From NCBI GenBank assembly GCA_001792115.1, contig MGFX01000002.1, positions 4,965 to 68,964 of the forward strand: a DNA stretch of 64,000 nt, read 5' to 3'. Positions 25,975-64,000 of this stretch are shown piece after piece; position 1 is the first letter of the stretch, and each line of letters starts with the position of its first letter. Source of the DNA: Candidatus Woesebacteria bacterium RBG_16_42_24. GTDB lineage: Bacteria > Patescibacteriota > Microgenomatia > UBA8517. The translations under genes and the position numbers were made by a program. The notes below the pieces were generated by a model. It made no database searches and was not told where the DNA came from. It was given only the letters and a program-made list of their open reading frames with translations.

Positions 25975-26810
25975 TTAACTTGCTTTCTTAGAAGTACAAG
26001 TTCCAAGATTCCCAAAAATATTCCAAAATCATAAATCAGCTTAAAAACTACGAAGGCTGGTTGCCAATGAACTACCGATTTGAAAATCCCCACGAGTAGA
26101 GAGACGGGAAATGAGGCTCTTAAAAGTCCCACGCAGTAACCAAGAAATCCAAGTTTATACTTTCTTTTTCCAACCCAACGAGCGTGGCCAAAAACTTCTG
26201 TCAGGCCCGAGGGGTTTTTATGATAAAAAATTGCGCCTTTAGCAGAATCGGCCATATATCCCAGCTTTTCATACAGGCTATAATCGTCTGTATAGCCTCC
26301 TGGGGTAAACCCTCCTACCTTATCAAATTCGGATTTAAGAATCGCTCTAAAAACCTTTTGCTTATCGGGATAGTATTTGGGATGCCTTCTTCTTTCTTCC
26401 CAATTTTGGTTTATGTTCCAACACCTTGCCCAAACGTTTTCCCAGTTACTCACGTATTCGTATTTTGAAAAAGTTCCCTTAGTCTTTCCAGAAAGAATTG
26501 GCTTAACTAGATTTTTCAGAAAATTTTTGTCGAAAGTCATGTCAGCGTCGACAAAAACTAAAATCTCGCCATTTGCATGTTCTGCACCCAAATTCCTCGC
26601 CGCACCCGGCCCCTTATGTTGCTCTCGCAACAATTTAGGGTTTAGGGTTTTGGGGTTAGAATTTCCGACAACACCGGGAGTGTTGTCGGTAGATCCATCG
26701 TCGACAACTATTATTTCGAAATCGTGATATGTTTGTTTGGACAGAGATTCTAAACACTCTCCTATCACGTCTTCTTCGTTGTATGTGGGAATAATTACTG
26801 TAACTTTCAT
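25971..26810 (-). CDS. Glycosyltransferase family 2 with C-terminal TM helices
   Basis: VTVIIPTYNEEDVIGECLESLSKQTYHDFEIIVVDDGSTDNT...ILVFVDADMTF. Confidence 0.8.
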   Translation of the reverse strand: MKVTVIIPTYNEEDVIGECLESLSKQTYHDFEIIVVDDGSTDNTPGVVGNSNPKTLNPKLLREQHKGPGAARNLGAEHANGEILVFVDADMTFDKNFLKNLVKPILSGKTKGTFSKYEYVSNWENVWARCWNINQNWEERRRHPKYYPDKQKVFRAILKSEFDKVGGFTPGGYTDDYSLYEKLGYMADSAKGAIFYHKNPSGLTEVFGHARWVGKRKYKLGFLGYCVGLLRASFPVSLLVGIFKSVVHWQPAFVVFKLIYDFGIFLGILELVLLRKQVK

Positions 26811-37914: not shown

Positions 37915-39389
37915 CTATTTTTCCTGACTAGAAGAACTGCCCGAGCGGGTTCTCTCTCGTATGTCTCATCAGACAAAATCATAAATTCCTTCTTAAATTC
38001 AAAGTTACTGACAATAAATTTATCCTCGATATCTTTTGGGTTCTCAAAAGCTTGCCTCCACTCGGGTCCCATAAAATAGTTTTCATCGTCTATTAAATAA
38101 CTCGTGAGAAATATTGCATCAAACGGGTTTTTTTCTGCCTCAATATCTAGCTGGTCCGGTTTTAAAGGAAACCAGACTGTCTTTCTTTCCCCATACCAAC
38201 TTCCCCATGTGTCAAGATTGGTAACAATGACGTCTTCTGGGCTGGTATTTTCTCTTAGCGTCCTGGAAAGGGTGACGTAAACGGGGGGTTTTCCTTTGTT
38301 GACAATCTTTGCTTTGTGCCTTGAATCAAGAAAAATGACTCCGAGGGTTTGGCCAACTACAAAAACAAAGACCAGCAAACTCGAAACCAGAATTCTGGCT
38401 TTGTTTTTGTTAATACCTAAACCCAAAATCCTAAATCCTAATCCCTCCACTATCCAAACCAGCGTCGCTACTGCGAAAAGATAAACCAACGGAACCACTG
38501 GGTGAAGATATCTAAAAAGGGGAATAGTTAAGGCTGCAACTAAAAAAGTAGCTACAACCATAAAAATTGTTGAAATCTTTAGATAGTTTTCTATTTTGTT
38601 TTTTGACCACATAAATAACCCAATTATAAAAAGCGCCCACATATAGGGCGAGGTAATCTGGGGTAGAAGTTTGTAGAAATTATAGAGATTATAAAAAACC
38701 TTTTTAAATATAGCAATTATGTTTGTTTCCTGCACCGCTCCTCTTAGGGCATCCGATGTGGCCTGACCAGGCAGGTGTTGGGTAACTGCAAATATTCCTT
38801 GCTTGGAAATGAAGAAGTATAGTGCCGATCCTGCGACGAAAGTCGCTATGAAATAACTCAGTGCCTTTTTTATAGGAAAGTTAAGAAGAAAAAATAAAAA
38901 TAAAAGTCCAAAAATATAAATAATCGCCTGAGCGCGTGTGAAATAAACTAAAACTAAAACTAAAAATCCTAAGATATTGGCCCATTTCCTCCTCATGATA
39001 AAAAGATAGGCCCCAAGAATTATCTCGCATGCAAATAATGTCTCGGAAGCGCCGCTTGTGGCATATTCCAGGAAATTTACATTGAAAGCAACTGAGATTG
39101 CTCCCAATAATCCTACGAGCTGTCCCCACAACTTCTTGCCAAGAAGATAAGTTGTCAAAACGAGGAGTAGATAAAAGAAGGATGAGGTTGCTATAACGCT
39201 TAAATCCGAAATTCCGAATATCTTAAAGAATCCCGCAATTGCCAAGGGCATACCTGGTTGTATCACTTGTGCGTTATTTGCACCCCAAAAATTGAAGGAC
39301 GAGGAAAACTCATTCCCTTGAACAATACTTCTGGCTATATCGGCATATTTAGCACCATCTGAAAACGTCAAATAAAGATGGAACATCAT
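37911..39389 (-). CDS. Polytopic membrane protein, possible GT-C glycosyltransferase
   Basis: N-proximal SDGAKYADIARSIVQG followed by 11 or more TM helices. Confidence 0.4.
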   Translation of the reverse strand: MMFHLYLTFSDGAKYADIARSIVQGNEFSSSFNFWGANNAQVIQPGMPLAIAGFFKIFGISDLSVIATSSFFYLLLVLTTYLLGKKLWGQLVGLLGAISVAFNVNFLEYATSGASETLFACEIILGAYLFIMRRKWANILGFLVLVLVYFTRAQAIIYIFGLLFLFFLLNFPIKKALSYFIATFVAGSALYFFISKQGIFAVTQHLPGQATSDALRGAVQETNIIAIFKKVFYNLYNFYKLLPQITSPYMWALFIIGLFMWSKNKIENYLKISTIFMVVATFLVAALTIPLFRYLHPVVPLVYLFAVATLVWIVEGLGFRILGLGINKNKARILVSSLLVFVFVVGQTLGVIFLDSRHKAKIVNKGKPPVYVTLSRTLRENTSPEDVIVTNLDTWGSWYGERKTVWFPLKPDQLDIEAEKNPFDAIFLTSYLIDDENYFMGPEWRQAFENPKDIEDKFIVSNFEFKKEFMILSDETYEREPARAVLLVRKNR

Positions 39390-51933: not shown

Positions 51934-53430
51934 TTAATATCCCAGAAATTGTCGCGATTCAATCGGCCAGGTATTTCTTCCGAAATCACCCTTAAAACGT
52001 TTGTATTCCGCTGACAATTTGTTATTCCAGAAAACCTTAAAATAGTTTTGGTCAGATAAGGTTACCTTTAAAATCTCCGTCGGGCTCCAGGGTAAATCAT
52101 TGTCTTCGTCGGTATCGTAAAAGGCTATGGTTTTATATTTCTCAAGAGTCTCGGCGTTTTCGAGAAAATAATTGTGAACCCTTTTGGCAGTTTGGGCACC
52201 CTTAGTAATCCAATTGGTTTCGGCCGTTAAGTTCAGTGTCAAAACTGAAAGGATCAGCCAGATAGCTAAAAAACTGAATATGGCTAGTGGTTTGTGATTA
52301 GTGACTAGTGAATAAGAAATGAAGACTACTACCCCCATGAGGGGAAGGGTGAGATAGAAGGTGAATTTGTGAAGAGGAAGAAAAAGGACGGGAAGAAGGG
52401 TAATTAGGAACCAAGAGGTTCCAAAAATTACTAATTTTAAATTTCTAATTTCTAATTTTCTTATGCTAGAAGAAAAAAACTTGTAAACAGCAGCTGACAA
52501 CAGAAACAACTCCAATAAAAACAAGGTTAAAATAGGAATAATTTGGCTGGACCAATACTTAAAAAGGTTGGGGTTGAAGTGAAAGCCGGGGCCAACAAAA
52601 TCAACAAGCATTTCAGGCAAATTAAATGACCAAAGTCCATACCAGCCGAGGGTATTTACCGCCCTTTTAACTGAGAAATCCCAAACATAGCTATCCCCCG
52701 TGGCAAAGCCATAATAAGCAAACCTAAAGTAAAAATAAAAAATCAAAATTAAAAAATAGGGAGCGGTACTAGCAATTAATCGATTGATCGGTAGGGGAGC
52801 AGATTTCTTAGTTAACTTGAAAAAAATATATATTAGAAACAGACAGAGTGGCAAAACGACGGCGGTTTCTTTGGATAATAAACTTAAGACAAAAAACAAA
52901 AGACTTAATAGTAAATAATTTGTTGACGACTTATGCAGAAATTTGATGAAAGATAAAACCGAAAGAAGGAAAAATAAAGCTAGCCCAAGTTCTTGAAATG
53001 CGCCCAAGAAATAAAGATGGCCGAAATGAGTAGCGGAGGTAGCATATAGGAAAGCTGCGAGGAGAGAAATGTGATTGGTGAATGGTGATTTGTGATCGTT
53101 AAGTAATAACAAACAGAACTTGTAAACGAGAAAGATAACCGCGAAGAAAATGAAAAACGAAATTACATGAAGACCTAATGGATTTAAGTTAAAAATTTTC
53201 CGAGCCAGAAAATAGAAAACCTGGGTAGTAAGTGGTCTATACATTCCCAATCCGTCGGGGCCTCTAGTCAGATTAAAAAAGTTTAGAAATTCCTTTACAG
53301 AGTTTGCTTGGGAAATTTTTAGAAGAAAAAAGTCGTCGTTGGTGTAAAAAGTAGACAACGAGGGAAGAAAAAGAAAAAAAGAAATTAAGAAAATAAGAAA
53401 TAAATACTTGGTAGACAAAGAAAATTTCAT
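51934..53430 (-). CDS. GT-C fold membrane glycosyltransferase-like (PMT/ArnT-like)
   Basis: N-proximal FYTNDDFFLLKISQ DD motif, about 12 TMs. Contains (AATTTCT)n heptamer repeats at about 52439-52458 and GTGATT-type repeats at 52291-52316 and 53071-53098. Confidence 0.5.
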   Translation of the reverse strand: MKFSLSTKYLFLIFLISFFLFLPSLSTFYTNDDFFLLKISQANSVKEFLNFFNLTRGPDGLGMYRPLTTQVFYFLARKIFNLNPLGLHVISFFIFFAVIFLVYKFCLLLLNDHKSPFTNHISLLAAFLYATSATHFGHLYFLGAFQELGLALFFLLSVLSFIKFLHKSSTNYLLLSLLFFVLSLLSKETAVVLPLCLFLIYIFFKLTKKSAPLPINRLIASTAPYFLILIFYFYFRFAYYGFATGDSYVWDFSVKRAVNTLGWYGLWSFNLPEMLVDFVGPGFHFNPNLFKYWSSQIIPILTLFLLELFLLSAAVYKFFSSSIRKLEIRNLKLVIFGTSWFLITLLPVLFLPLHKFTFYLTLPLMGVVVFISYSLVTNHKPLAIFSFLAIWLILSVLTLNLTAETNWITKGAQTAKRVHNYFLENAETLEKYKTIAFYDTDEDNDLPWSPTEILKVTLSDQNYFKVFWNNKLSAEYKRFKGDFGRNTWPIESRQFLGY

Positions 53431-54277: not shown

Positions 54278-54658
54278 TTACTTATTGAATTTTTGAATTT
54301 GTTTGGAGTTTAGAGTTTTGGATTTAGAATTTATTAATCCTTTTAGGGCTTCTTGTCTAATAAAACGCTCTAGTTTTTTTTCAATTCTTTTGGTTCTTAC
54401 ATAAGCTATCGCGACCATTGTAATCACCAAGACGAAGCCTCCCAGAACCAGAAGATCCAGAAGTCTTGAAATGAAAAAGGTCTGTGCAAAGGCTCGAAGC
54501 GTATCCGGGAAAAGAACCATGAATGAAGCCGCGCCCCATGCAGAAACCCATATTGATAGTTCAACCCTGTTAATTTCCTTTCGTTTGAAATTAACATAGG
54601 CAAAGTAAATCATTACAAGAGCAAAAACTACGGCCAATATTTGAAGACCGAATATCAT
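54278..54658 (-). CDS. Small membrane protein, DUF2304-like (often paired with a GT2 polyprenyl-phosphate glycosyltransferase)
   Basis: 126 aa with 3-4 TMs, and a 4-nt overlap with the downstream GT2. I recall the family pairing but cannot verify it here. Confidence 0.4.
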   Translation of the reverse strand: MIFGLQILAVVFALVMIYFAYVNFKRKEINRVELSIWVSAWGAASFMVLFPDTLRAFAQTFFISRLLDLLVLGGFVLVITMVAIAYVRTKRIEKKLERFIRQEALKGLINSKSKTLNSKQIQKFNK

Positions 54659-56072: not shown

Positions 56073-57386
56073 CTAGGACACCCAATAGCCTCGCGAAAAG
56101 AGGGCGAGGGAAATTGCGGCTAAGAATAGTAATGTCAAATAAACCAACCCTTTAACCAACTTTGATTTTTTGTTAAGCCAAAGGGCCATAAGAATATAGG
56201 CGGGGAAAAGAATAAGAACATAGCGTGGGAAAGAGGAGAAACTTCCGGAAAGGGGCGGGATTAGGTATCCCGCCGCTAGAAACAAGGAATAGCCAAGTCT
56301 CAATTTAAAAAACGACCATACACCAAGGATTCCAAATATAATAGCCGAAGCTATTTCAAGATAGGTAGTAAATACTATCGGGAAATAATTGTAATTAAGG
56401 CTGGGAAGAACCTTGAAAAAATATCTATAAAAAACTTGCGGGAGAAGAATTAGAGTACTTGAGCGCTGCTGCCCAAAAATCGAAACATTATGAACGAATT
56501 CAAGCGGGTCCCCGGTTATCCTATATAAATAGTACATATAGGCCGCCAGGCCTAGAGGGATAAGAAGCAGAGAAACAATTTTTTTAAGGTTGACGGCAGT
56601 GATTAGTGAATACCCGCCAGCAACGCTTGAAGCGTAGCTTCTACGGGCTGGGTGATTGGTGAATGGTGACTTCTTGTAAAAATACTCGACTGCAATTGCC
56701 GGAACAAGTGCCAATGCGGTAATTCGGGTTGCGGTTGCAAAAGCTCCAAGAACTCCTGCAAAAATCCAGCTCCTTTTTCTTGCAAAGTAAAACGACCAAA
56801 CGATTAAGGCCAGTGTTAAGCTCTCCGTATAAAAAGCCCCGAAATAAAAAGACGTTGGAAAAAGGATTAATAAAAGAAGAGTCATCTTTGCAATATTTTC
56901 TTTATGACGTCCTCCCCGCCTTAAAAGGCGGGGTTTCCCTAAGGAGGACGACATATCAGCGTTCAATTCATCCCCACCCTCCGGGGCGAGGTTTTCTTGA
57001 ATGCTGTTATAATCAAGCCGTATAAGTTTCCACAAACCAATTAAACCTACAAGGAATGATAAGTTAGAAATAAGAAGTCCGGTAAAAGCTATCGTAATAT
57101 ATTCGGGATTTATCAAAGACGCGGCGATACGGGTGACAAGCGGGAAAAGGGGAAAAAAGAAATAGGTCAAAGGCTGATACCCTTGGTGGGCAATCGCCGC
57201 ATAGTGCTCCCCGTCAAAATTCAGCCAAGACCAAAAATAAGGATTTTTAAGATAGTTTGACAAACCTCCTCCAAGAAAATCCTTTTGAAAAGGAAAAAGG
57301 CCAGCCGCTAAAAAAACTACTCCAAAAAGAAAGAGTCTCCAGGTGACAAAACTTCCCAAAATAAATCTCCAATTATCGCCTTTCAC
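56073..57386 (-). CDS. Polytopic membrane protein (GT-C/DUF2029-like) carrying two in-frame repeat insertions
   Basis: A hydrophobic protein interrupted by the hydrophilic stretch NSIQENLAPEGGDELNADMSSSLGKPRLLRRGGRHKENIAKM, encoded by repeat-element copy 2. A second segment, SPFTNHPARRSYASSVAGGYSLITAVN, is encoded between GTGATT-type direct repeats. Confidence 0.45.
   Translation of the reverse strand: MKGDNWRFILGSFVTWRLFLFGVVFLAAGLFPFQKDFLGGGLSNYLKNPYFWSWLNFDGEHYAAIAHQGYQPLTYFFFPLFPLVTRIAASLINPEYITIAFTGLLISNLSFLVGLIGLWKLIRLDYNSIQENLAPEGGDELNADMSSSLGKPRLLRRGGRHKENIAKMTLLLLILFPTSFYFGAFYTESLTLALIVWSFYFARKRSWIFAGVLGAFATATRITALALVPAIAVEYFYKKSPFTNHPARRSYASSVAGGYSLITAVNLKKIVSLLLIPLGLAAYMYYLYRITGDPLEFVHNVSIFGQQRSSTLILLPQVFYRYFFKVLPSLNYNYFPIVFTTYLEIASAIIFGILGVWSFFKLRLGYSLFLAAGYLIPPLSGSFSSFPRYVLILFPAYILMALWLNKKSKLVKGLVYLTLLFLAAISLALFSRGYWVS
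56599..56669 (+). repeat. Pair of GTGATTRGTGAAT(GGTGA) direct repeats flanking a ~40-nt insert, inside ORF 56073..57386
   Basis: gtgattagtgaata at 56599-56612 and gtgattggtgaatggtga at 56652-56669. The 18-mer also occurs identically at 53071-53088, in a different gene. Confidence 0.55.
56901..57004 (+). repeat. Structured interspersed repeat element, copy 2 (about 104 nt), inserted in frame within ORF 56073..57386
   Basis: tttatgacgtcctcc-[ccccgcc ttaaaa ggcgggg]-tttccctaaggaggacgacatatcagcgttcaattcatcc...gttttcttgaatgc. Confidence 0.7.
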
Positions 57387-57428: not shown

Positions 57429-58511
57429 CTAGCCTAGAACTTTTTTGTAAATTTCTAACGTTTCCCTGGCGGTTTTCTCCCACGAATAATTTTTAACCAA
57501 TACCTTACCTTTTTCCACCAGCTGATCCCTTAGTTCCCCGTCATTAAAAACCTGGGATATTTTATCTGCTATATCCTTGGGGTTTTTAGGGTCGGCAAAA
57601 AGACATGCTGGCTCACCAATTTCAACCAAGGCCTGAGTCTTGCTTGCAACCACAGGACATTCGCTTGCAAAAGCCTCAAGTACAGGAAGCCCAAATCCTT
57701 CATAAAAAGAAGGCTGGCAATAAAGAGTCGCTAAATTATAAAGACCAACTAAATCTTCATCCGGAACAAATCCTAATCTAATGACTTCTTTATCGTCTCC
57801 GTACTTTTCAAGAAGTTTAATAAGTGGTTTATTTTCCGTGTGAGTCTCGTCAAAATCAGCCGAAGCCGCCTGCTTACCGGCTATCACAAGTGGAATTCTT
57901 ACAATTTTGCAAGCTTGGATAAGTCCCAACAAATTTTTATTGTAATTAACGTCACCAACATATAATACAAAACGCTCCGGAAGACCGTAACGTTTTTGAA
58001 TTTCCAATTTCCAATGGTTCGACGGGCTCACCATCCTGAGCGAAGTCGAAGGATTTCCAATCTCCAATTTCCTGAAAATTTCGCGTGGAGCCTCGTGTAT
58101 TACTGATATTTTTTCTTCAGGTATTCCTAAAAATCTTATAATGTCTTTTTTCGACGTCTCCGATACCGCGATAATTGCATCTATCTTAGAGATCAGAAAT
58201 TTTTGAATAATAAATCTCAATTTGCCCTTAATTCCCGGCGGATAGTGCTCAGGGTATATCAGATAAATTAGGTCGTGGATGGTAATAACAGATGGAATGG
58301 ATTTGGTTAAGGGAACACTAAAAAAATAAGGGTGAAATTTTTGATAATGGACGATATCGTACTTCGTTAAATCGTTCTTGGAAGCATCGACCAAATCCAA
58401 CTCAACACCGTCTAATTTTTTGAGATGTTTAACTAGCTCTTTAGTATAAAAACCTATCCCCCTCCCCACATCACCTTCCGACATGGGTCCTGTATCAATT
58501 GCTATCCTCAT
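57429..58511 (-). CDS. Glycosyltransferase family 4, with a short insertion flanked by direct repeats
   Basis: FVLYVGDVNYNKNLLGLIQA...QPSFYEGFGLPVLEAFASECPVVASKTQALVEI. The segment IGNPSTSLRMVSPSNHWKLE is encoded between TTTCCAATTTCCAAT at 58001-58015 and TTTCCAATCTCCAATTTCC at 58054-58072. Confidence 0.8.
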   Translation of the reverse strand: MRIAIDTGPMSEGDVGRGIGFYTKELVKHLKKLDGVELDLVDASKNDLTKYDIVHYQKFHPYFFSVPLTKSIPSVITIHDLIYLIYPEHYPPGIKGKLRFIIQKFLISKIDAIIAVSETSKKDIIRFLGIPEEKISVIHEAPREIFRKLEIGNPSTSLRMVSPSNHWKLEIQKRYGLPERFVLYVGDVNYNKNLLGLIQACKIVRIPLVIAGKQAASADFDETHTENKPLIKLLEKYGDDKEVIRLGFVPDEDLVGLYNLATLYCQPSFYEGFGLPVLEAFASECPVVASKTQALVEIGEPACLFADPKNPKDIADKISQVFNDGELRDQLVEKGKVLVKNYSWEKTARETLEIYKKVLG

Positions 58512-59366: not shown

Positions 59367-60644
59367 TTATCTCGATTGTATCACCATATTTGCGGCTTTT
59401 TCTCCAAGCTCAACCGCATAATTGGTCCCTCTATCCCAAGGGTAAACCTGCTGGATGTTTGTAAGAAACAAGCCTTCTATGGGAGTTTTTATTTGCGGCA
59501 TTATTTTAGAGTAATTTAAAGGAACAATTGGCTGGGCAAAAGGAGCTGTAAATTTATTGGCTTCCATTACCCAATTTTGTCTAAACTCCGGGTTTATCTT
59601 TTGCAAATATGGTAAAAATAATTCAAAAAGTTCTCTCGGCTCTTTGGAATAGAAAGGATGATCCTGGGGGAGGTAGTTTCCAACATAGATAATGTGATTT
59701 CCACCGTAATATCTCTTGTCCATGAAATTGGTGTGTTCCACAACCGCCAAAAAAGGAAAATTTTCTTCACTTACATTCAACCAATATATGTCGTTTTTAA
59801 GAAACTCTCTTTTTAGAACAAGCATTAAGTTAACGGCCCCTATACCTTTAAAGGAAAGGAGTCTTTGGGAGTAAGGTTCGGGGAGATCCTGGACGATATT
59901 TGCAAAAGAGGCGTATGGAAGCGTACAGATAACTTTGTCAAATTCGAATCTTCCTTTATCCGTCAATACTTCCAGTTTAGAATCTACCTTCGTTATTTTT
60001 TCAACCCTGGTTTTGTATAAAATCCTTCCTTTATTTTGCCTAATTAATGCATCAAGCCTAGTTGCAAATTTTAAAAATCCTCCCTCGGGGTATCCCAGAG
60101 ATGAGCTTCTTTTTTTAATTCTCGCCCAAAACCACGAGGCCGGAATTTGGTCTGCAAAATGGCTGAATTTTTTTTCAAAAAGTGGTCTCCATAGCATATC
60201 CCAAGTTTTCTCGCCGTTATATTTTGCCAGAAACCTCCTCGCTGTAACTTTCTCAAGAGGTTTCCAAAATGGAGTAAGTTTTAAAAAGGCTAAAACTAGA
60301 CCGGTGCGAATTCTATCTAATAATGACAATTTATCAAATAGCATAAGGCTTTGGGGGGAATCCAGCTGGTAAATTGTCCCCTTAATAAAGGTCGAAGTTT
60401 TTGTCGGCAAATAAATATATTTGTGCCCAGTCTCTTTAGCCAATTTCCTAATTGCAAAGTCGGAATAAAACCAATGATGGTAATGCTTCTCCAAACTCCA
60501 CTTCCACCCTTTTTTAGTAAACCCTACCGCAAGGCCCCCGGGATAGTCCTCTCCCTCAAAGACAGTAACTTCGAATCCTTGCTTGGTTAGTCTATGAGCT
60601 GCCGCCAACCCAGTGAATCCCGCACCGATTATTCCAATATTCAT
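59367..60644 (-). CDS. FAD/NAD(P)-binding oxidoreductase (amine oxidase/HemY-like fold)
   Basis: MNIGIIGAGFTGLAAAHRLTKQGFEVTVFEGEDYPGG, a dinucleotide-binding GxGxxG with a downstream GG. Length 425 aa. Confidence 0.55.
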   Translation of the reverse strand: MNIGIIGAGFTGLAAAHRLTKQGFEVTVFEGEDYPGGLAVGFTKKGWKWSLEKHYHHWFYSDFAIRKLAKETGHKYIYLPTKTSTFIKGTIYQLDSPQSLMLFDKLSLLDRIRTGLVLAFLKLTPFWKPLEKVTARRFLAKYNGEKTWDMLWRPLFEKKFSHFADQIPASWFWARIKKRSSSLGYPEGGFLKFATRLDALIRQNKGRILYKTRVEKITKVDSKLEVLTDKGRFEFDKVICTLPYASFANIVQDLPEPYSQRLLSFKGIGAVNLMLVLKREFLKNDIYWLNVSEENFPFLAVVEHTNFMDKRYYGGNHIIYVGNYLPQDHPFYSKEPRELFELFLPYLQKINPEFRQNWVMEANKFTAPFAQPIVPLNYSKIMPQIKTPIEGLFLTNIQQVYPWDRGTNYAVELGEKAANMVIQSR

Positions 60645-60648
60645 TTTT

Positions 60649-62310
60649 CTAATTAGCTACAGCCTCGAAATAAAGATATCCGTTTGTCCCGTATATCCTT
60701 TTAACAATATTTGCCTCATTCGGTATTTCCTCGTCGGTTCCTACAATTAAACTCCCGGGGTTTTGGGGTTTAATAGTGTCAAAATCTATCGGCACAAATT
60801 CGTATTTGCCAAAACTTCTGACTGTTGAAAAGCCATATTTATCTTTTGCCGTAAGCGTATGTTCCAACTGAAACTTTTGGGGTGGGTATTTTAAATAAAA
60901 AAGGAAAAGAATATAAGGCTGGTCGTAGCGATCAGTAACTATTATCTTCTGGTTCGCTTTCTCCTTAGTATAGCTTACCAACTCCTTTACCCCATACTGC
61001 GATGAGAAGGGAAACTCCTTAGCCATATGGACCCAATACATATGCTGATACCTGGCAAAACCCCAGATTATCAAGACCCCAAGCGCCAAATAACCCCATA
61101 ATCGAATTTTCCTTAGATTGTTAAGCCATGAAAGGGTTGTCATAAGACCATATGCACTGATTACAGTTAATGGAATCGCCATATTTTGGGCCCTTAGGGC
61201 GTGGGGAGACTGAAAAGTCAACGCCGAAGCGGTTGGAGCCAACAAAAGCCACACTAAAATCACTCCCCAACCCTGCCTGCCGGCAGGCAGGCTTTTAGAA
61301 CTCTTGGCAATTGCCAAAAGACCGACAATCAAGAAAAGTATGTCAAATAAATACATCTGCCCCGTTTCGGGAACCTTATCCCTCTCAATGGCGTCTCCCG
61401 TAAGGAAAAGGAATTCTCCCCAGAAATGCTGCGAATAGTTTTGGGCAAAGGCCAATGAGTAATTAACCACCTTGTTGTGAATGGCTTTAGGGACAAAAGC
61501 CAAATAGTCTTGGTGCTCTCCGCGCTGCTCGTTAATCCTCGAAAGAGGCCCGGGATCCGCAAAAAGGCCGACCCCTGCAACCCTTGAACCCACCTCCCCT
61601 TTCGCAATATCAAAACCCAAGGGGGCAAGTAAAATTAATGCTGCAATTCCTGAAATAATAAAGGATTTAATGTCTGGACGGATTTCTTTACGGTAAATAA
61701 GACCCAAACCAATGACTAGTAAGGGCACAACTACCCTTGCGGCGTGGTAAGTATATAGGGACAGTACAAAGCTGATAGTACATAGGGCATAGTAGTTTGG
61801 ATTTTTAAGCCCTTTCAAATACAGTAAAAGACCAAGGCTAATAAAAAAAGTGGCTACATTTACTTCCCAACCGCCTCTCGAGAAGTGTATGTGCCAGGGC
61901 GAGATTGCAAGGAAAAGCGCTGCAAACTCGCCAATTTCCAATTTCCAATTTCCAATTTCCAATTTTTTATCCGGAAACAGTTCTCTACACAGAAAATAAA
62001 CGACCAGAACGGTGGCAACGCCAAAGAGGGCTCCCGGAATTCGGACTGCGAGCTCACTTAGTCCTAATACTTTTACAAATGGCAAAACTAAATAGAAATA
62101 GAGACCAGGTTTGTAATCGTTGAACGACTGAAAATGGATTGGCCAGGCATTTCCATGCTCGTCTTTGCCAGTTTCGATTAGAGAGTAGGCATTATAGCCA
62201 ATTGCCGCCTCATCGGCATTAAGTGCTGGATAGGAACCAAGTCTCCAAAACCGTAAAAAAGAGGCTAACAGCAATATTAAAAACAGTAGTAACTTTCTTT
62301 TTCTTAACAT
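60649..62310 (-). CDS. GT-C fold glycosyltransferase, PMT_2 family (bacterial dolichyl/polyprenyl-phosphate-mannose protein-mannosyltransferase-like)
   Basis: FLRFWRLGSYPALNADEAAIGYNAYSLIETGKDEHGNAWP, an N-proximal DE motif. Contains (CCAATTT)4 at 61931-61958 encoding KLEIGNWKLEIG, and the 20-bp palindrome at 61274-61293. Confidence 0.65.
   Translation of the reverse strand: MLRKRKLLLFLILLLASFLRFWRLGSYPALNADEAAIGYNAYSLIETGKDEHGNAWPIHFQSFNDYKPGLYFYLVLPFVKVLGLSELAVRIPGALFGVATVLVVYFLCRELFPDKKLEIGNWKLEIGEFAALFLAISPWHIHFSRGGWEVNVATFFISLGLLLYLKGLKNPNYYALCTISFVLSLYTYHAARVVVPLLVIGLGLIYRKEIRPDIKSFIISGIAALILLAPLGFDIAKGEVGSRVAGVGLFADPGPLSRINEQRGEHQDYLAFVPKAIHNKVVNYSLAFAQNYSQHFWGEFLFLTGDAIERDKVPETGQMYLFDILFLIVGLLAIAKSSKSLPAGRQGWGVILVWLLLAPTASALTFQSPHALRAQNMAIPLTVISAYGLMTTLSWLNNLRKIRLWGYLALGVLIIWGFARYQHMYWVHMAKEFPFSSQYGVKELVSYTKEKANQKIIVTDRYDQPYILFLFYLKYPPQKFQLEHTLTAKDKYGFSTVRSFGKYEFVPIDFDTIKPQNPGSLIVGTDEEIPNEANIVKRIYGTNGYLYFEAVAN
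61274..61293 (+). repeat. 20-bp perfect palindrome CCTGCCTGCCGGCAGGCAGG inside the PMT_2 ORF. A near-copy lies at 51811-51826 in the intergenic region.
   Basis: It is its own reverse complement. 51809-51826 reads acctgcctgccggcaagg, a 16/17 match, immediately adjacent to repeat-element copy 3. Confidence 0.6.
61931..61958 (+). repeat. Heptanucleotide tandem repeat (CCAATTT)x4 within a coding sequence
   Basis: ccaatttccaatttccaatttccaattt. A unit length of 7 is not a multiple of 3, so a change of one unit would frameshift the PMT_2 gene. Confidence 0.8.
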
Positions 62311-63165
62311 CTATTTGACCAACAATAAACCCAAAAGACCCAGAAGGGATCCTACAATCTTCCAAATAATTCTCTTTCTTTCATTAAGAAAAAGAATCGC
62401 AAAAATCACAGTTACGACAACACCTATGGAATTTAAAGAAATTACTTGTGATGAATTTTCCGTAATCTGCAATGCATAGAAAAACAAAATTATAGACGCT
62501 GCATAGAATAAACTTAAGGTCGCCATTCTAACAAATCTTTCCTTCACTAGAAAAACTTTCATGTTTTTAATCCTGCCAGAGTAAAATGCTAGAATCGACA
62601 ATGCTGGAAGGACAAATCCAAGGAATGAGTACGGGAAAACGTCAAAGTGTCTAAGGAGAAATCTGTCGTTGACAACGGCAAATCCGTAAAACATTGCAGC
62701 CAAAAGAGCATAAATTTCTTTAAAGGAGAATTTAATTTTCTTTGTTTCCAAAGATACAATAACTGCAGCAGAAAGAATAAGCAACGTACCTATCCATTGT
62801 GAAACCGTAAGAGTTTCCTTCATTAGAAGCGAAAAAGCCAATACTGCAATAATTGCCCTGGAACTAAAGATGACAGAAAATTTTGATGCCTCGGTTTTTT
62901 TTAATGCTTTAAACACAAAAATGTTACCAAGTGCGTAAAGAACTATCATTAATAAAAAGTTCAATATTAAGGGCTTGAAATCAGGGTACTTCATTGAGGT
63001 AAATAAATAGCCGAAAATCCCTATCATTAGTCCCGTTAACAGTTGAGAGAAAGAAGCATAAGCCACCGGGTCACTGCCCTTTTCCGTGACCAGTATTCTT
63101 TGCAGCAATACCGAGACAGAATAACAAATAACGCTCAAAATAATTAGTATTTGCCAAGTCACCAT
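62311..63165 (-). CDS. EamA/DMT-superfamily transporter-like membrane protein
   Basis: A 10-TM protein with two internal repeats of EamA-like helices. Confidence 0.5.
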   Translation of the reverse strand: MVTWQILIILSVICYSVSVLLQRILVTEKGSDPVAYASFSQLLTGLMIGIFGYLFTSMKYPDFKPLILNFLLMIVLYALGNIFVFKALKKTEASKFSVIFSSRAIIAVLAFSLLMKETLTVSQWIGTLLILSAAVIVSLETKKIKFSFKEIYALLAAMFYGFAVVNDRFLLRHFDVFPYSFLGFVLPALSILAFYSGRIKNMKVFLVKERFVRMATLSLFYAASIILFFYALQITENSSQVISLNSIGVVVTVIFAILFLNERKRIIWKIVGSLLGLLGLLLVK

Positions 63166-64000
63166 TATTTAGCCTCCATTATCAAAAACGCCAGCGAACC
63201 GTCGGGCCTAAGGACCTCTTCAAGAATTCTATAATCTACTAAAACACGATCTTTTGGGGCAACCACCTCATCGGCGACTACTACTGTGCCACTAGGAAAT
63301 TTAAACGGCCAACTCAAGAACTGAAAGCTTAAGTTTTTATACTCGCTTACCAACCCGACGTCGCCGACGCTGCTGGGCTCATAAACCGCACTTTCCCAAA
63401 ACTCTCGCGAGTCCTCCTTCCAATAGAAAAGGAAATAAATAAAAGGCTGGGCGTAAGACTGCTGAAAAACTATTTCTCGCGAGTCCAAACCTGACTCCTT
63501 TAAATATTCAACTGCCTCTCTATACCCATATTCCCAGTATTTGGCTGAGTGCGTTGGGAGGTGCACAAAGTAAGAATCCAGATAGTACAAATAGTTCAGA
63601 AAATATAATGCCACAAATGCCAAAACGGCTATTTTTATTAAAGTGCCCTTGAACAATTTCTCAAAAAAGCCATAAAGCGCCAAAGAAGAAACAACAATTA
63701 GCGGGATAACCATTTGAATACTCCTTACCCCATGAACAGGATCCCTTGACAATATTGAAGGTATGGGTGCAAGTACCAGCCAAAGAAGAATAAATAAGAA
63801 ATATTTATTCTTGATGTTTCGGACAAACTTAACAAGCCCCGCCAAAATTAAAATGGAATCGGCCAATAAAAACATCCCCATATTTGGCGGGCTATGTCGG
63901 GGGTTATTCCAATCGCCCTCAAAGAATAGAAACCTTCCCGAAAAATGATTAAACCACTTTCCCGCAATCACCCTTGCCCAGTTCAGAGTCTCCGTATGAA
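63165..64000 (-). CDS. GT-C/PMT_2-like membrane glycosyltransferase, C-terminal portion. The gene continues beyond the window end.
   Basis: The frame stays open upstream of the GTG at 63971 through position 64000. FFEGDWNNPRHSPPNMGMFLLADSILILAGL resembles the ...FLTGDAIERDKVPETG...DILFLIVGL region of ORF 60649..62310, a likely paralogue. Confidence 0.5.
   Translation of the reverse strand, partial: HTETLNWARVIAGKWFNHFSGRFLFFEGDWNNPRHSPPNMGMFLLADSILILAGLVKFVRNIKNKYFLFILLWLVLAPIPSILSRDPVHGVRSIQMVIPLIVVSSLALYGFFEKLFKGTLIKIAVLAFVALYFLNYLYYLDSYFVHLPTHSAKYWEYGYREAVEYLKESGLDSREIVFQQSYAQPFIYFLFYWKEDSREFWESAVYEPSSVGDVGLVSEYKNLSFQFLSWPFKFPSGTVVVADEVVAPKDRVLVDYRILEEVLRPDGSLAFLIMEAK

What the first reader, a model, noticed from the sequence alone, without database searches (positions are those of the whole stretch)
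61931..61958. Heptamer tandem repeats (AATTTCC/CCAATTT)n inside surface-glycan glycosyltransferase genes: candidate slipped-strand phase-variation switches
(CCAATTT)x4 lies within the PMT_2-like gene 60649..62310, encoding KLEIGNWKLEIG. Related 7-mers occur at 58001-58015 and 58054-58072 in GT4 57429..58511, and (AATTTCT)x2-3 occurs at about 52439-52458 in GT-C gene 51934..53430, encoding KLEIRN. A 7-nt unit is out of frame, so gain or loss of one unit by replication slippage would switch the enzyme OFF or ON. This is the classic contingency-locus design for surface glycan variation (established in Neisseria, Haemophilus and Campylobacter), and it has not to my knowledge been described in CPR-like bacteria.
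Basis: partly seen in the sequence, partly recalled or inferred. Interest (0 to 1): 0.6.

Follow-up and report, generated by a model that had tools for sequence, protein, structure and literature searches.

The report
Slippage-prone 7-base repeat in glycosyltransferase gene
A perfect five-copy 7-base repeat sits in a loop of a membrane sugar-transferase gene of a groundwater Woesebacteria; it is switched on in every assembly, but a related gene with the same repeat at the same loop loses one or two copies, breaking the gene.

Summary
The tract is (CCAATTT)x5, perfect, at 61931-61965, not x4. It lies in the GT-C/PMT_2 gene 60649..62310 (minus strand) and encodes KLEIGNWKLEIG. AlphaFold2 confidently predicts this peptide as a beta-hairpin between TM3 and TM4.

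For it:
- Only 2, 5 or 8 units keep the reading frame.
- A homologous Woesebacteria GT-C gene carries (GAAAATT)(GGAAATT)3 at the same loop. It has 4 units (intact) on about 30 contigs. It has 3 and 2 units (frameshifted) on one contig each.
- The 2-unit and 3-unit contigs match each other, and the 2-unit and 4-unit contigs match each other, apart from the repeat.

Against it:
- All 19 distinct contigs of the window's own gene carry 5 units, although they span several SNP haplotypes.
- No truncated product of this gene is on record.
- The syntenic orthologue has no repeat.
- The same G[GA]AAATT arrays sit in frame inside essential genes (LeuRS, IleRS, FolD, MurC, MurG, TIM and others) of CPR (Candidate Phyla Radiation) bacteria.
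- Period-7 repeats are in general excess in these genomes, and heptanucleotide excess in prokaryotes is already known.

Best reading: this is a slippage-born repeat that can act as an on/off frameshift switch in a dispensable paralogue. Adaptive phase variation is unproven.

The parts
61931..61965 (-). Perfect heptanucleotide tract. It reads (AAATTGG)x5 on the coding (minus) strand and (CCAATTT)x5 on the plus strand, and encodes KLEIGNWKLEIG (aa 116-127). ON registers are 2, 5 and 8 units.
60649..62310 (-). Host gene: a GT-C fold, PMT_2/ArnT-like lipid-carrier-dependent glycosyltransferase of 553 aa. D33-E34 are invariant in the first loop. The tract forms a predicted beta-hairpin (116-119 / 122-125) between TM3 (86-111) and TM4 (126-135).
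57999..58015 (-). AATTTCC x2.4 (perfect, 17 nt) in the inter-domain linker of the GT4 gene 57429..58511, encoding HWKLEIQ. It falls within the 13 extra linker residues relative to the syntenic orthologue L270.
58054..58072 (-). Imperfect copy of the same heptamer (GGATTTCCAATCTCCAATTTCC) encoding RKLEIGN in the GT4 linker. It is separated from the previous half-array by a hairpin-forming segment of about 39 nt.
52425..52461 (-). Imperfect (80-86%) AATTTCT / 14-mer array encoding RKLEIRNLKL at aa 325-336 of the second GT-C-like ORF 51934..53430. A perfect array of this unit would contain TAG, so it cannot be extended in frame.
53071..53096 (-). Period-7 array (GTGATTG-like, 84%) encoding HKSPFTNH at aa 112-120 of ORF 51934..53430. 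By position this is the loop equivalent to the TM3-TM4 loop of the main gene. The same unit recurs at 56651-56669 in the ALG10-like GT-C gene.
56651..56669 (-). GGTGAAT x2.7 array encoding KSPFTNH in the DIE2/ALG10-like membrane protein 56073..57386. It lies in a loop that is replaced by shorter, different sequence in strain contigs L003/L023.

Best explanation
The tract is a slippage-born heptanucleotide simple-sequence repeat embedded in the codons of a tolerant loop of a dispensable, multi-paralogue GT-C glycosyltransferase.

Origin (inferred). A short seed (AAATTGGAAATTGG, which would encode KLEIG) grew by three units, that is 21 nt or 7 aa.

Present state. The tract is in the ON register of 5 units. 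Read in three frames, the 7-nt unit gives the 7-aa period KLEIGNW, which is predicted to fold as a beta-hairpin extension between TM3 and TM4.

How it works.
- Replication slippage by one or two units shifts the frame and truncates the enzyme at 140-166 aa.
- Slippage by three units keeps the frame and only changes the hairpin length.
- The tract therefore behaves as a mutational ON/OFF frameshift switch.

What is shown and what is inferred.
- Shown in a homologue with the same heptamer at the same loop: 4 units ON, 3 and 2 units OFF, on contigs with no other difference.
- Inferred, not shown, for this gene. It is ON in every assembly seen.

Context. The tract is one instance of a heptamer-repeat excess found in these CPR contigs. 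The same arrays occur in essential genes, where only in-frame states are seen. The repeat is therefore primarily a product of mutation bias. Any contingency function in the glycosyltransferase family is secondary and unproven.
For: - Perfect 35-nt tract and frame logic.
- Homologue polymorphism. L275-L280 carry 4 units with an intact 542-aa gene; P0243 is on 27 contigs, plus three single-contig 542-aa cluster members. L274 carries 3 units and L273 carries 2 units, and both are split into 121/122-aa and 424-aa ORFs. L274 against L273 shows 0 mismatches and one 7-nt gap. L275-L280 against L273 show 0 mismatches over 4.0-4.6 kb and one 14-nt gap.
- The syntenic orthologue L270 (78-82% aa identity, same gene order) lacks the tract, so it is a lineage-specific gain. 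That assumes the minimal loop shared by the closest homologues is ancestral.
- Loop lengths in 120 homologues are quantised: 16 aa (no insert), 23 (+7), 25-26 (18/19 + 7), 30 and 32. Arrays range from perfect to decayed, from at least 3 heptamer families (KLEIGNW, FSIFNFQ, SPITNHQ).
- Beta-hairpin predicted with pLDDT 91-94.
- Period-7 excess. There are 91 perfect arrays of at least 3 copies against 6-8 for periods 5, 6 and 8 in 1.57 Mb of fetched loci, with the searched motif excluded. The window has 13 period-7/14 arrays against about 2.1 in shuffles.
- In-frame arrays occur in LeuRS, IleRS, FolD, Fmt, TsaD, TsaB, RsmA, MurC, MurG, a further Mur-family ligase, TIM, UvrC, MnmA and a TrxB-like oxidoreductase.
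- In-frame genic arrays peak at 30-33 nt, 41 of 81 against 57 of 209 for other arrays.
- Dispensability: at least 6 GT-C paralogues lie in tandem, and another paralogue carries a nonsense codon in the same loop.
- Literature: heptanucleotide long SSRs are over-represented in prokaryotes, and a polymerase-slippage explanation has been proposed.
Against: - No length variant of this particular tract was seen in 19 distinct contigs spanning several haplotypes. None was seen in its protein cluster or among N-terminal fragments. With the homologue's rate of 2 OFF in 32 contigs, zero in 19 has a probability of about 0.3, so this is weak evidence either way.
- Five units is far fewer than in validated heptamer switches. 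NeuO has 3-53 units, most often 20, and 66% of genomes are OFF.
- A seed-plus-21-nt origin needs either a triple slip or transient OFF intermediates. The window's loop differs from L270 by 9 aa, not 7, so more than one event occurred.
- Identical units at the same site but in opposite orientation, in MurC and possibly in GT-C, are awkward for a purely in-situ slippage origin.
- Consensus assemblies cannot show minority alleles.
Confidence: 0.5

Rival explanations
1. Evolved contingency locus. The tract is maintained by selection because reversible ON/OFF switching of this and sister GT-C enzymes diversifies the cell-surface glycan of an episymbiotic CPR bacterium, for example against phage or for host attachment.
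For: - ON/OFF unit polymorphism on contigs with no other difference in a homologue at the same loop.
- Arrays from at least 3 heptamer families recur at this one loop across the family.
- The gene sits in a glycan cluster with at least 6 tandem GT-C paralogues plus GT2 and GT4 genes.
- Different samples of one series carry different dominant alleles.
- A validated precedent exists for a heptanucleotide intragenic switch in a surface-glycan modifier, NeuO.
Against: - The same arrays occur in frame in essential single-copy genes, where switching would be lethal. Their presence therefore does not imply selection for mutability.
- Recurrence at one loop is equally explained by tolerance of that loop.
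- Both observed variants are contractions to OFF. No reversal was seen.
- This gene is fixed ON in 19 contigs.
- Many homologues have point-mutated, frozen arrays.
- Another paralogue is inactivated by a plain nonsense codon. This fits relaxed selection rather than programmed switching.
Confidence: 0.22
2. Stable in-frame loop insertion. The repeat is a fossil of one past expansion and is now simply a structural beta-hairpin of the enzyme. Its slippage rate at 5 units is too low to matter.
For: - It is invariant in 19 contigs across haplotypes with up to 0.8% divergence.
- The same 33-35-nt array is in the ON register in homologues of 65% identity (L029, L178).
- The hairpin is predicted with high confidence.
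- In-frame arrays of 30-33 nt are held stably in essential genes.
Against: - The tract is still perfect, with no interruptions. A homologous tract of only 4 units, one of them a variant, does vary by single units on contigs with no other difference.
- The syntenic orthologue lacks the tract, so it is young.
Confidence: 0.2
3. Templated or mobile mini-insertion, or a DNA-level motif. G[GA]AAATT arrays of about 30 nt are delivered to many sites in either orientation by a dedicated process, or are retained because a factor binds them. They did not grow in place from local seeds.
For: - The same unit is found in many genes and phyla.
- The same site carries opposite orientations in MurC orthologues. 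GT-C L029 and L030 may be a second case.
- Two genes 4 kb apart in this strain (GT4 and PMT_2) both gained the same unit relative to L270.
- Non-CPR genomes carry the arrays as inverted pairs in intergenic DNA.
Against: - Ascertainment: the scans could only return perfect G[GA]AAATT arrays.
- Many other heptamer units are also expanded.
- P0019 equals the array-less loop length plus exactly 21 nt, next to a pre-existing AAATTGGAAATT-like seed.
- L030's array can equally be read in the same register with 3 substitutions per unit.
- No candidate enzyme or flanking signature was found.
Confidence: 0.08

Closest known systems
NeuO O-acetyltransferase of E. coli K1 (heptanucleotide AAGACTC repeat in the 5' coding region)
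   Same: - A 7-nt unit lies inside the ORF of a surface-glycan-modifying enzyme.
- Full-length translation needs one register in three.
- The repeat is translated as a 7-aa periodic peptide.
- Strand slippage is the mechanism.
   Different: - NeuO has 3-53 units (most often 20). 66% of complete genomes are OFF and mixed lengths occur within a culture.
- Here there are 5 units, mid-gene in a transmembrane loop, with all 19 assemblies ON.
- Variation is seen only in a homologue (4, 3 and 2 units).
- The enzyme family differs (GT-C, not an acetyltransferase), and the host is an uncultured CPR bacterium.
Simple-sequence contingency loci in LOS/LPS/capsule glycosyltransferases of Haemophilus, Neisseria and Campylobacter
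   Same: - A non-triplet repeat within the ORF.
- Frameshift ON/OFF.
- Glycan-cluster context with several paralogous transferases (my knowledge; reviews listed).
   Different: - Those use mono- to pentanucleotide units and usually long tracts near the 5' end, with measured switching rates.
- Here the unit is a heptamer, the tract is short, and the same repeat class also sits in essential genes.
Over-represented heptanucleotide long SSRs of prokaryotes (Mrazek et al. 2007 as cited; Xanthomonas GGGAATC, Nostoc GGGGAYT, Beggiatoaceae TAACTGA, Calothrix repeats)
   Same: - Unit of 7 nt, with arrays mostly of about 4 units.
- Many loci per genome share related units.
- Both orientations and inverted pairs occur.
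- Strong excess of period 7 over neighbouring periods.
- A polymerase-slippage explanation has been proposed (compare).
   Different: - The described cases are mainly intergenic.
- In these CPR contigs the arrays are mostly in-frame coding insertions: 19 of 32 CPR arrays against 16 of 88 in other phyla.
- The unit is AT-rich G[GA]AAATT rather than G-rich.
- A frameshift polymorphism is documented here.

Membership tests
SSR-mediated (slipped-strand) phase-variable contingency locus | Tandem repeat of a non-triplet unit inside the ORF, so that unit number sets the reading frame | tested here: met
   (AAATTGG)x5 sits at codons 116-127. Registers of 2, 5 and 8 units are ON; all others truncate at 140-166 aa.
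SSR-mediated (slipped-strand) phase-variable contingency locus | Repeat number differs between closely related cells or strains, with both ON and OFF alleles present | tested here: not met
   At consensus level, 19 distinct contigs spanning several SNP haplotypes all carry 5 units. All three cluster members are 553 aa. No truncated fragment is on record. The feature is met for homologue P0243: 4 units ON, 3 and 2 units OFF.
SSR-mediated (slipped-strand) phase-variable contingency locus | High-frequency, reversible switching within a population | not testable with these tools
   This needs read pile-ups, long reads or culture. Only consensus assemblies were available.
SSR-mediated (slipped-strand) phase-variable contingency locus | Repeats are enriched in surface or host-interaction genes rather than in housekeeping genes | tested here: not met
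   Identical arrays lie in frame in LeuRS, IleRS, FolD, Fmt, TsaD, RsmA, MurC, MurG, TIM, UvrC, MnmA and others.
Prokaryotic heptanucleotide long-SSR class | Unit of 7 nt, with period 7 in excess over neighbouring periods in the same genome | tested here: met
   The window has 13 period-7/14 arrays against about 2.1 in dinucleotide shuffles. Fetched loci hold 91 perfect period-7 arrays against 6-8 for periods 5, 6 and 8.
Prokaryotic heptanucleotide long-SSR class | Many dispersed loci share related units, typically about 4 copies, in both orientations | tested here: met
Array length peaks at 30-32 nt, and both strands are represented.
GT-C fold lipid-carrier-dependent glycosyltransferase (PMT_2 / ArnT-like) | Multi-pass membrane protein with the GT-C fold and an acidic motif in the first extracytoplasmic loop | tested here: met
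   Pfam PMT_2 and PMT score just above their cut-offs. The AlphaFold2 model has pTM 0.82. Foldseek matches AglB, PglB, STT3, ArnT, Pmt4 and ALG9 at E-values from 2e-6 to 1e-3. D33-E34 are invariant in 59 homologues. Donor, acceptor and product are unknown.

The most novel reading that the evidence does not exclude
CPR bacteria (and some other phyla) have a heptamer-specific process that seeds near-identical G[GA]AAATT arrays of about 30 nt into tolerant loops of many proteins. These include essential proteins. The arrays go in either orientation and recur at the same site in orthologues.

In the expanded GT-C glycosyltransferase family, these arrays are co-opted as low-copy ON/OFF switches. 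To my knowledge, and on the literature searches run here, that would be the first slipped-strand phase variation of the cell surface described in CPR.
Probability: 0.15. Interest if true: 0.75.

Novelty: new member of a known kind. Interest (0 to 1): 0.5.

Why it matters
CPR/Patescibacteria are mostly uncultured episymbionts, and their surface is how they meet hosts and phages. A documented on/off length polymorphism of a coding heptamer repeat in a Woesebacteria glycosyltransferase suggests these organisms can vary surface glycans by strand slippage. The same kind of repeat is present here in the ON state. I found no paper describing this for CPR in the held library.

It is directly testable with existing metagenomic reads.

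Independently, these contigs show heptamer repeats as a common source of in-frame 7-aa insertions, even in essential proteins. That bears on the long-noted but unexplained excess of heptanucleotide repeats in prokaryotes. It is also a practical warning for gene calling and pseudogene calls in CPR metagenome-assembled genomes.

Tried and rejected
- tblastn of the window's GT-C protein against the 120 metagenome pattern loci found almost no homologues near the arrays. This ruled out a GT-C-specific element.
- A frame-based scan for OFF alleles among all fetched arrays flagged 41 cases. Most are forward-strand GAAAATT arrays, which contain TGA in all frames, lying between co-directional genes. 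The test could not separate intergenic arrays from frameshifted ones.
- All-against-all flank comparison of pattern loci found no near-identical pairs with different copy number.
- The apparent 27-nt difference between L001 and L002 is a run of N, not an indel.
- P0173/L281, a short product ending in the loop, is an in-frame TAG. It is not slippage.
- P0293 and P0294, cluster mates of the OFF fragments, are unrelated in their tails.
- The apparent nucleotide-perfect conservation of arrays between orthologues found by the pattern scans (LeuRS, GT-C) was set aside as largely an ascertainment effect. The unbiased protein-based sample shows a continuum from perfect to decayed arrays.
- Mrazek et al. 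2007 could not be read directly. It is cited only through.
- A Biopython neighbour-joining tree timed out and was replaced by average-linkage clustering.
Full report
**1. The observation**

The plus strand at 61931-61965 reads (CCAATTT)x5, 35 nt and perfect. It is the only perfect repeat of at least 3 copies with a unit of 7 nt or longer in the window; the only others with units above 3 nt are two tetramers and one hexamer. The 14-mer with up to 2 mismatches occurs 13 times against 2.7 expected, and none of 100 shuffles reaches 13.

The tract lies in ORF 60649..62310 on the minus strand (553 aa). This ORF passes the Pfam PMT_2 and PMT cut-offs narrowly. An AlphaFold2 model built on 59 homologues has pTM 0.82. 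It matches solved GT-C enzymes: AglB, PglB, STT3, ArnT, Pmt4 and ALG9. D33-E34 in the first loop are invariant.

On the coding strand the tract is (AAATTGG)x5 and encodes KLEIGNWKLEIG at aa 116-127. The model places it as a beta-hairpin (strands 116-119 and 122-125, G120-N121 turn, pLDDT 91-94). The hairpin lies between helices 86-111 and 126-135.

Simulated alleles show that 2, 5 and 8 units are in frame. All other numbers stop after 140-166 aa.

The organism is Candidatus Woesebacteria from the Rifle aquifer data sets.

**2. Is this tract variable?**

I looked up the exact protein and, to avoid bias towards intact alleles, its two flanking genes (EamA 62311-63165 and amine oxidase 59367-60644).

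- Together they returned 19 distinct contigs from 19 assemblies that cover the tract. Every one has 5 units and an intact 553-aa ORF.
- These contigs are not one clone. They differ from the window by 0 to 34 substitutions, up to 0.8%.
- The 90% identity cluster has three members, all 553 aa.
- A search with the N-terminal 134 residues would rank a truncated OFF product first. Its best hit was an ON fragment, and it found no OFF product of this gene.

At consensus level the tract is fixed ON.

**3. The same loop in homologues**

An alignment of 120 homologues shows that about half have a minimal loop of 16 residues. The rest carry insertions at exactly this site.

- Many insertions have 7-aa periods: LEIGNWKLEI, FSIFNFQFSI and SP(I/V/T)TNHQ.
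- DNA of six homologues confirms heptamer arrays. (AAATTGG)x4.7 is in L029, (GGAAATT)x5 in L178, x3.7 in L271, and a decayed copy in L272.
- L030 carries (AATTTTC)x4.6 in the same register.
- Loop lengths are quantised at 16, 23, 25-26, 30 and 32 residues, that is in steps of 7 aa or 21 nt.
- The loop of P0019 equals the array-less length plus exactly 21 nt, next to an AAATTGGAAATT seed.

The syntenic orthologue L270 has the same gene order and 78-82% identity. It has no array (AAA AAT GAA AAA CTT GCA...). All but three of the other members of the window gene's cluster share that minimal loop, and those three carry a 7-aa insert. If that loop is ancestral, the window's tract is a lineage-specific gain. 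Relative to L270 the window also gained 13 residues in the GT4 linker, and these carry the LEIGN and HWKLEI remnants.

**4. Direct evidence for slippage ON/OFF at this loop**

Among the short products returned, P0201 (121 aa) and P0186 (122 aa) share an N-terminus and then diverge just after KQLKIGN.

- Their contigs show one homologous GT-C gene split at the loop.
- L273 (a 221-kb contig) has CAATT-GAAAATT-GGAAATT-ATGGCG, which is 2 units. L274 has 3 units.
- L274 is otherwise identical to L273, with 0 mismatches and one 7-nt gap.
- The intact allele is P0243 (542 aa, Woesebacteria RIFCSPHIGHO2_02_FULL_42_20) with 4 units. It is on 27 contigs, and three further 542-aa cluster members are on one contig each.
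- Six fetched copies all have 4 units. They differ from L273 by nothing except a 14-nt gap over 4.0-4.6 kb.

Thus, with no other difference between the compared contigs, the only differences are one and two heptamer units. Both variants are frameshifted, and different samples of one series carry different dominant alleles.

This is the signature of slipped-strand instability. It occurs at a tract shorter and less perfect than the window's. With 2 OFF in 32 contigs there, finding 0 in 19 here has a probability of about 0.3. The window's constancy therefore does not show that it is stable.

**5. The repeat is not specific to glycan genes**

Almost none of the hits lie in homologues of this gene.

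- In contigs labelled CPR, the arrays sit mostly in frame inside long ORFs: 19 of 32 against 16 of 88 in other phyla, Fisher p = 3e-5.
- Pfam identifies the hosts as LeuRS, IleRS, FolD, Fmt, TsaD, TsaB, RsmA, MurC, MurG, a further Mur-family ligase, TIM, UvrC, MnmA, a TrxB-like oxidoreductase, a P-type ATPase and others.
- In-frame arrays peak at 30-33 nt, 41 of 81 against 57 of 209 for the rest. This is what a 9-12-nt seed plus 21 nt would give.
- With the searched motif excluded, the fetched loci hold 91 perfect period-7 arrays against 6-8 for periods 5, 6 and 8.
- The window has 13 period-7/14 arrays against about 2.1 in shuffles. Most of them lie in frame in genes.

Heptanucleotide repeats are already known as the most abundant long SSR class in prokaryotes, with a polymerase-slippage explanation proposed. 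Xanthomonas GGGAATC arrays are likewise mostly four units and often occur in inverted pairs. The inverted intergenic pairs I saw in Thermoanaerobaculia fit that picture.

**6. Interpretation**

The tract is best explained as a slippage-born heptanucleotide repeat that expanded in frame in a tolerant loop. Because the gene is one of many GT-C paralogues, single-unit frameshifts are survivable. At least six paralogues lie in tandem, and another is inactivated by a nonsense codon in the same loop. The tract therefore acts as an ON/OFF mutational switch, as shown for P0243.

Whether this is an evolved contingency mechanism or tolerated mutational noise is open.

- Arrays in essential genes show that presence alone does not imply selection for mutability.
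- Only contractions to OFF were seen.
- This gene is ON everywhere.

Against the benchmark of NeuO (3-53 units, 66% of genomes OFF), the behaviour is much more muted.

One observation is not well explained by in-situ slippage. MurC orthologues carry the same unit at the same site in opposite orientation, and GT-C L029 and L030 may be a second case. L030's array can also be read in the same register with three substitutions per unit. This leaves room for a delivered or templated insertion process, at low probability.

**7. Novelty**

Intragenic SSR phase variation of glycan enzymes, including heptamer units, is a known kind, and so is the heptamer excess.

New here:
- The CPR context.
- The GT-C transmembrane-loop location.
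- The very low copy numbers that still vary.
- The extent of in-frame heptamer insertions in essential CPR proteins.

Searches of the held library found no CPR paper mentioning phase variation among the top-ranked results. I rate it a new member of a known kind, of moderate interest.

Noticed in passing
window 61272-61291: A perfect 20-nt GC-rich palindrome, CCTGCCTGCCGGCAGGCAGG, lies inside the same GT-C gene and encodes LPAGRQ. It falls within a 7-aa insertion relative to the syntenic orthologue L270. Similar P-G-R / A-G-R peptides interrupt the loop arrays of homologues P0024 and P0060. This may be a second class of in-frame mini-insertion, formed by short hairpins.
   Followed up: partly
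window 58016-58054: In the GT4 linker, the two half-arrays (RKLEIGN ... HWKLEIQ) are separated by about 39 nt with nested inverted repeats (TTCGAC..GTCGAA, GCTCA..TGAGC). The 78-nt region containing it folds at -19.2 kcal/mol. It looks like a small palindromic insertion inside an older heptamer array.
   Followed up: partly
window 56561-56690 (ALG10-like GT-C gene 56073..57386): Strain contigs L003/L023 replace this loop (EYFYKKSPFTNHPARRSYASSVAGGYSLITAVNLKK...) with a shorter, unrelated sequence (AEIWLYNVRRPLKVEPLK...). The flanks are more than 98% identical. This is a strain-variable loop that carries a heptamer-coded peptide.
   Followed up: partly
window 26634-26659, 38416-38441, 54302-54332, 53071-53096: Further imperfect period-7 arrays (TTTAGGG, CCTAAAT, GTTTAGA and GTGATTG units) lie in frame in other genes. 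One follows the DDGSTDNT motif of a likely GT2 enzyme. G[GA]AAATT arrays occupy that same loop in likely GT2 genes of other genomes (L043, L109).
   Followed up: partly
L001 1-9146 (upstream of window end; window 63165-63971 is the start of it): Five more PMT/PMT_2 GT-C paralogues (555-580 aa) lie in tandem next to the window's gene. None carries the AAATTGG array.
   Followed up: partly
L156 7137-7270; L229 2355-2624; L233 499-575 and 1932-2004; L256 3415-3505; L060 5563-5658: In Thermoanaerobaculia and other non-CPR genomes, (GAAAATT)n arrays occur as closely spaced inverted pairs near gene starts. This resembles the inverted GGGAATC pairs described in Xanthomonas. Their function is unknown.
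   Followed up: no
L281 2501-3002: Another Woesebacteria GT-C paralogue has an in-frame TAG in the same TM3-TM4 loop (ELFPKNKWLP*VSVLFLAVSPWN), with the frame otherwise open. It is either a pseudogene or a read-through or recoding candidate.
   Followed up: no
L230 1848-3287: One Saccharibacteria LeuRS gene carries three separate G[GA]AAATT arrays in frame, two antisense and one sense.
   Followed up: no
L083 2794-5637; L262 3366-7073: CPR aminoacyl-tRNA synthetases carry whole extra domains. A LeuRS has a NUDIX domain at aa 410-519, and an IleRS has a histidine-phosphatase domain at aa 518-681 (Pfam).
   Followed up: no
L273 4341-4343: In the polymorphic homologue, an ATG follows the array directly (AAATT ATG GCG). 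OFF alleles therefore leave a 424-aa C-terminal ORF with its own start. A two-piece enzyme cannot be excluded.
   Followed up: no
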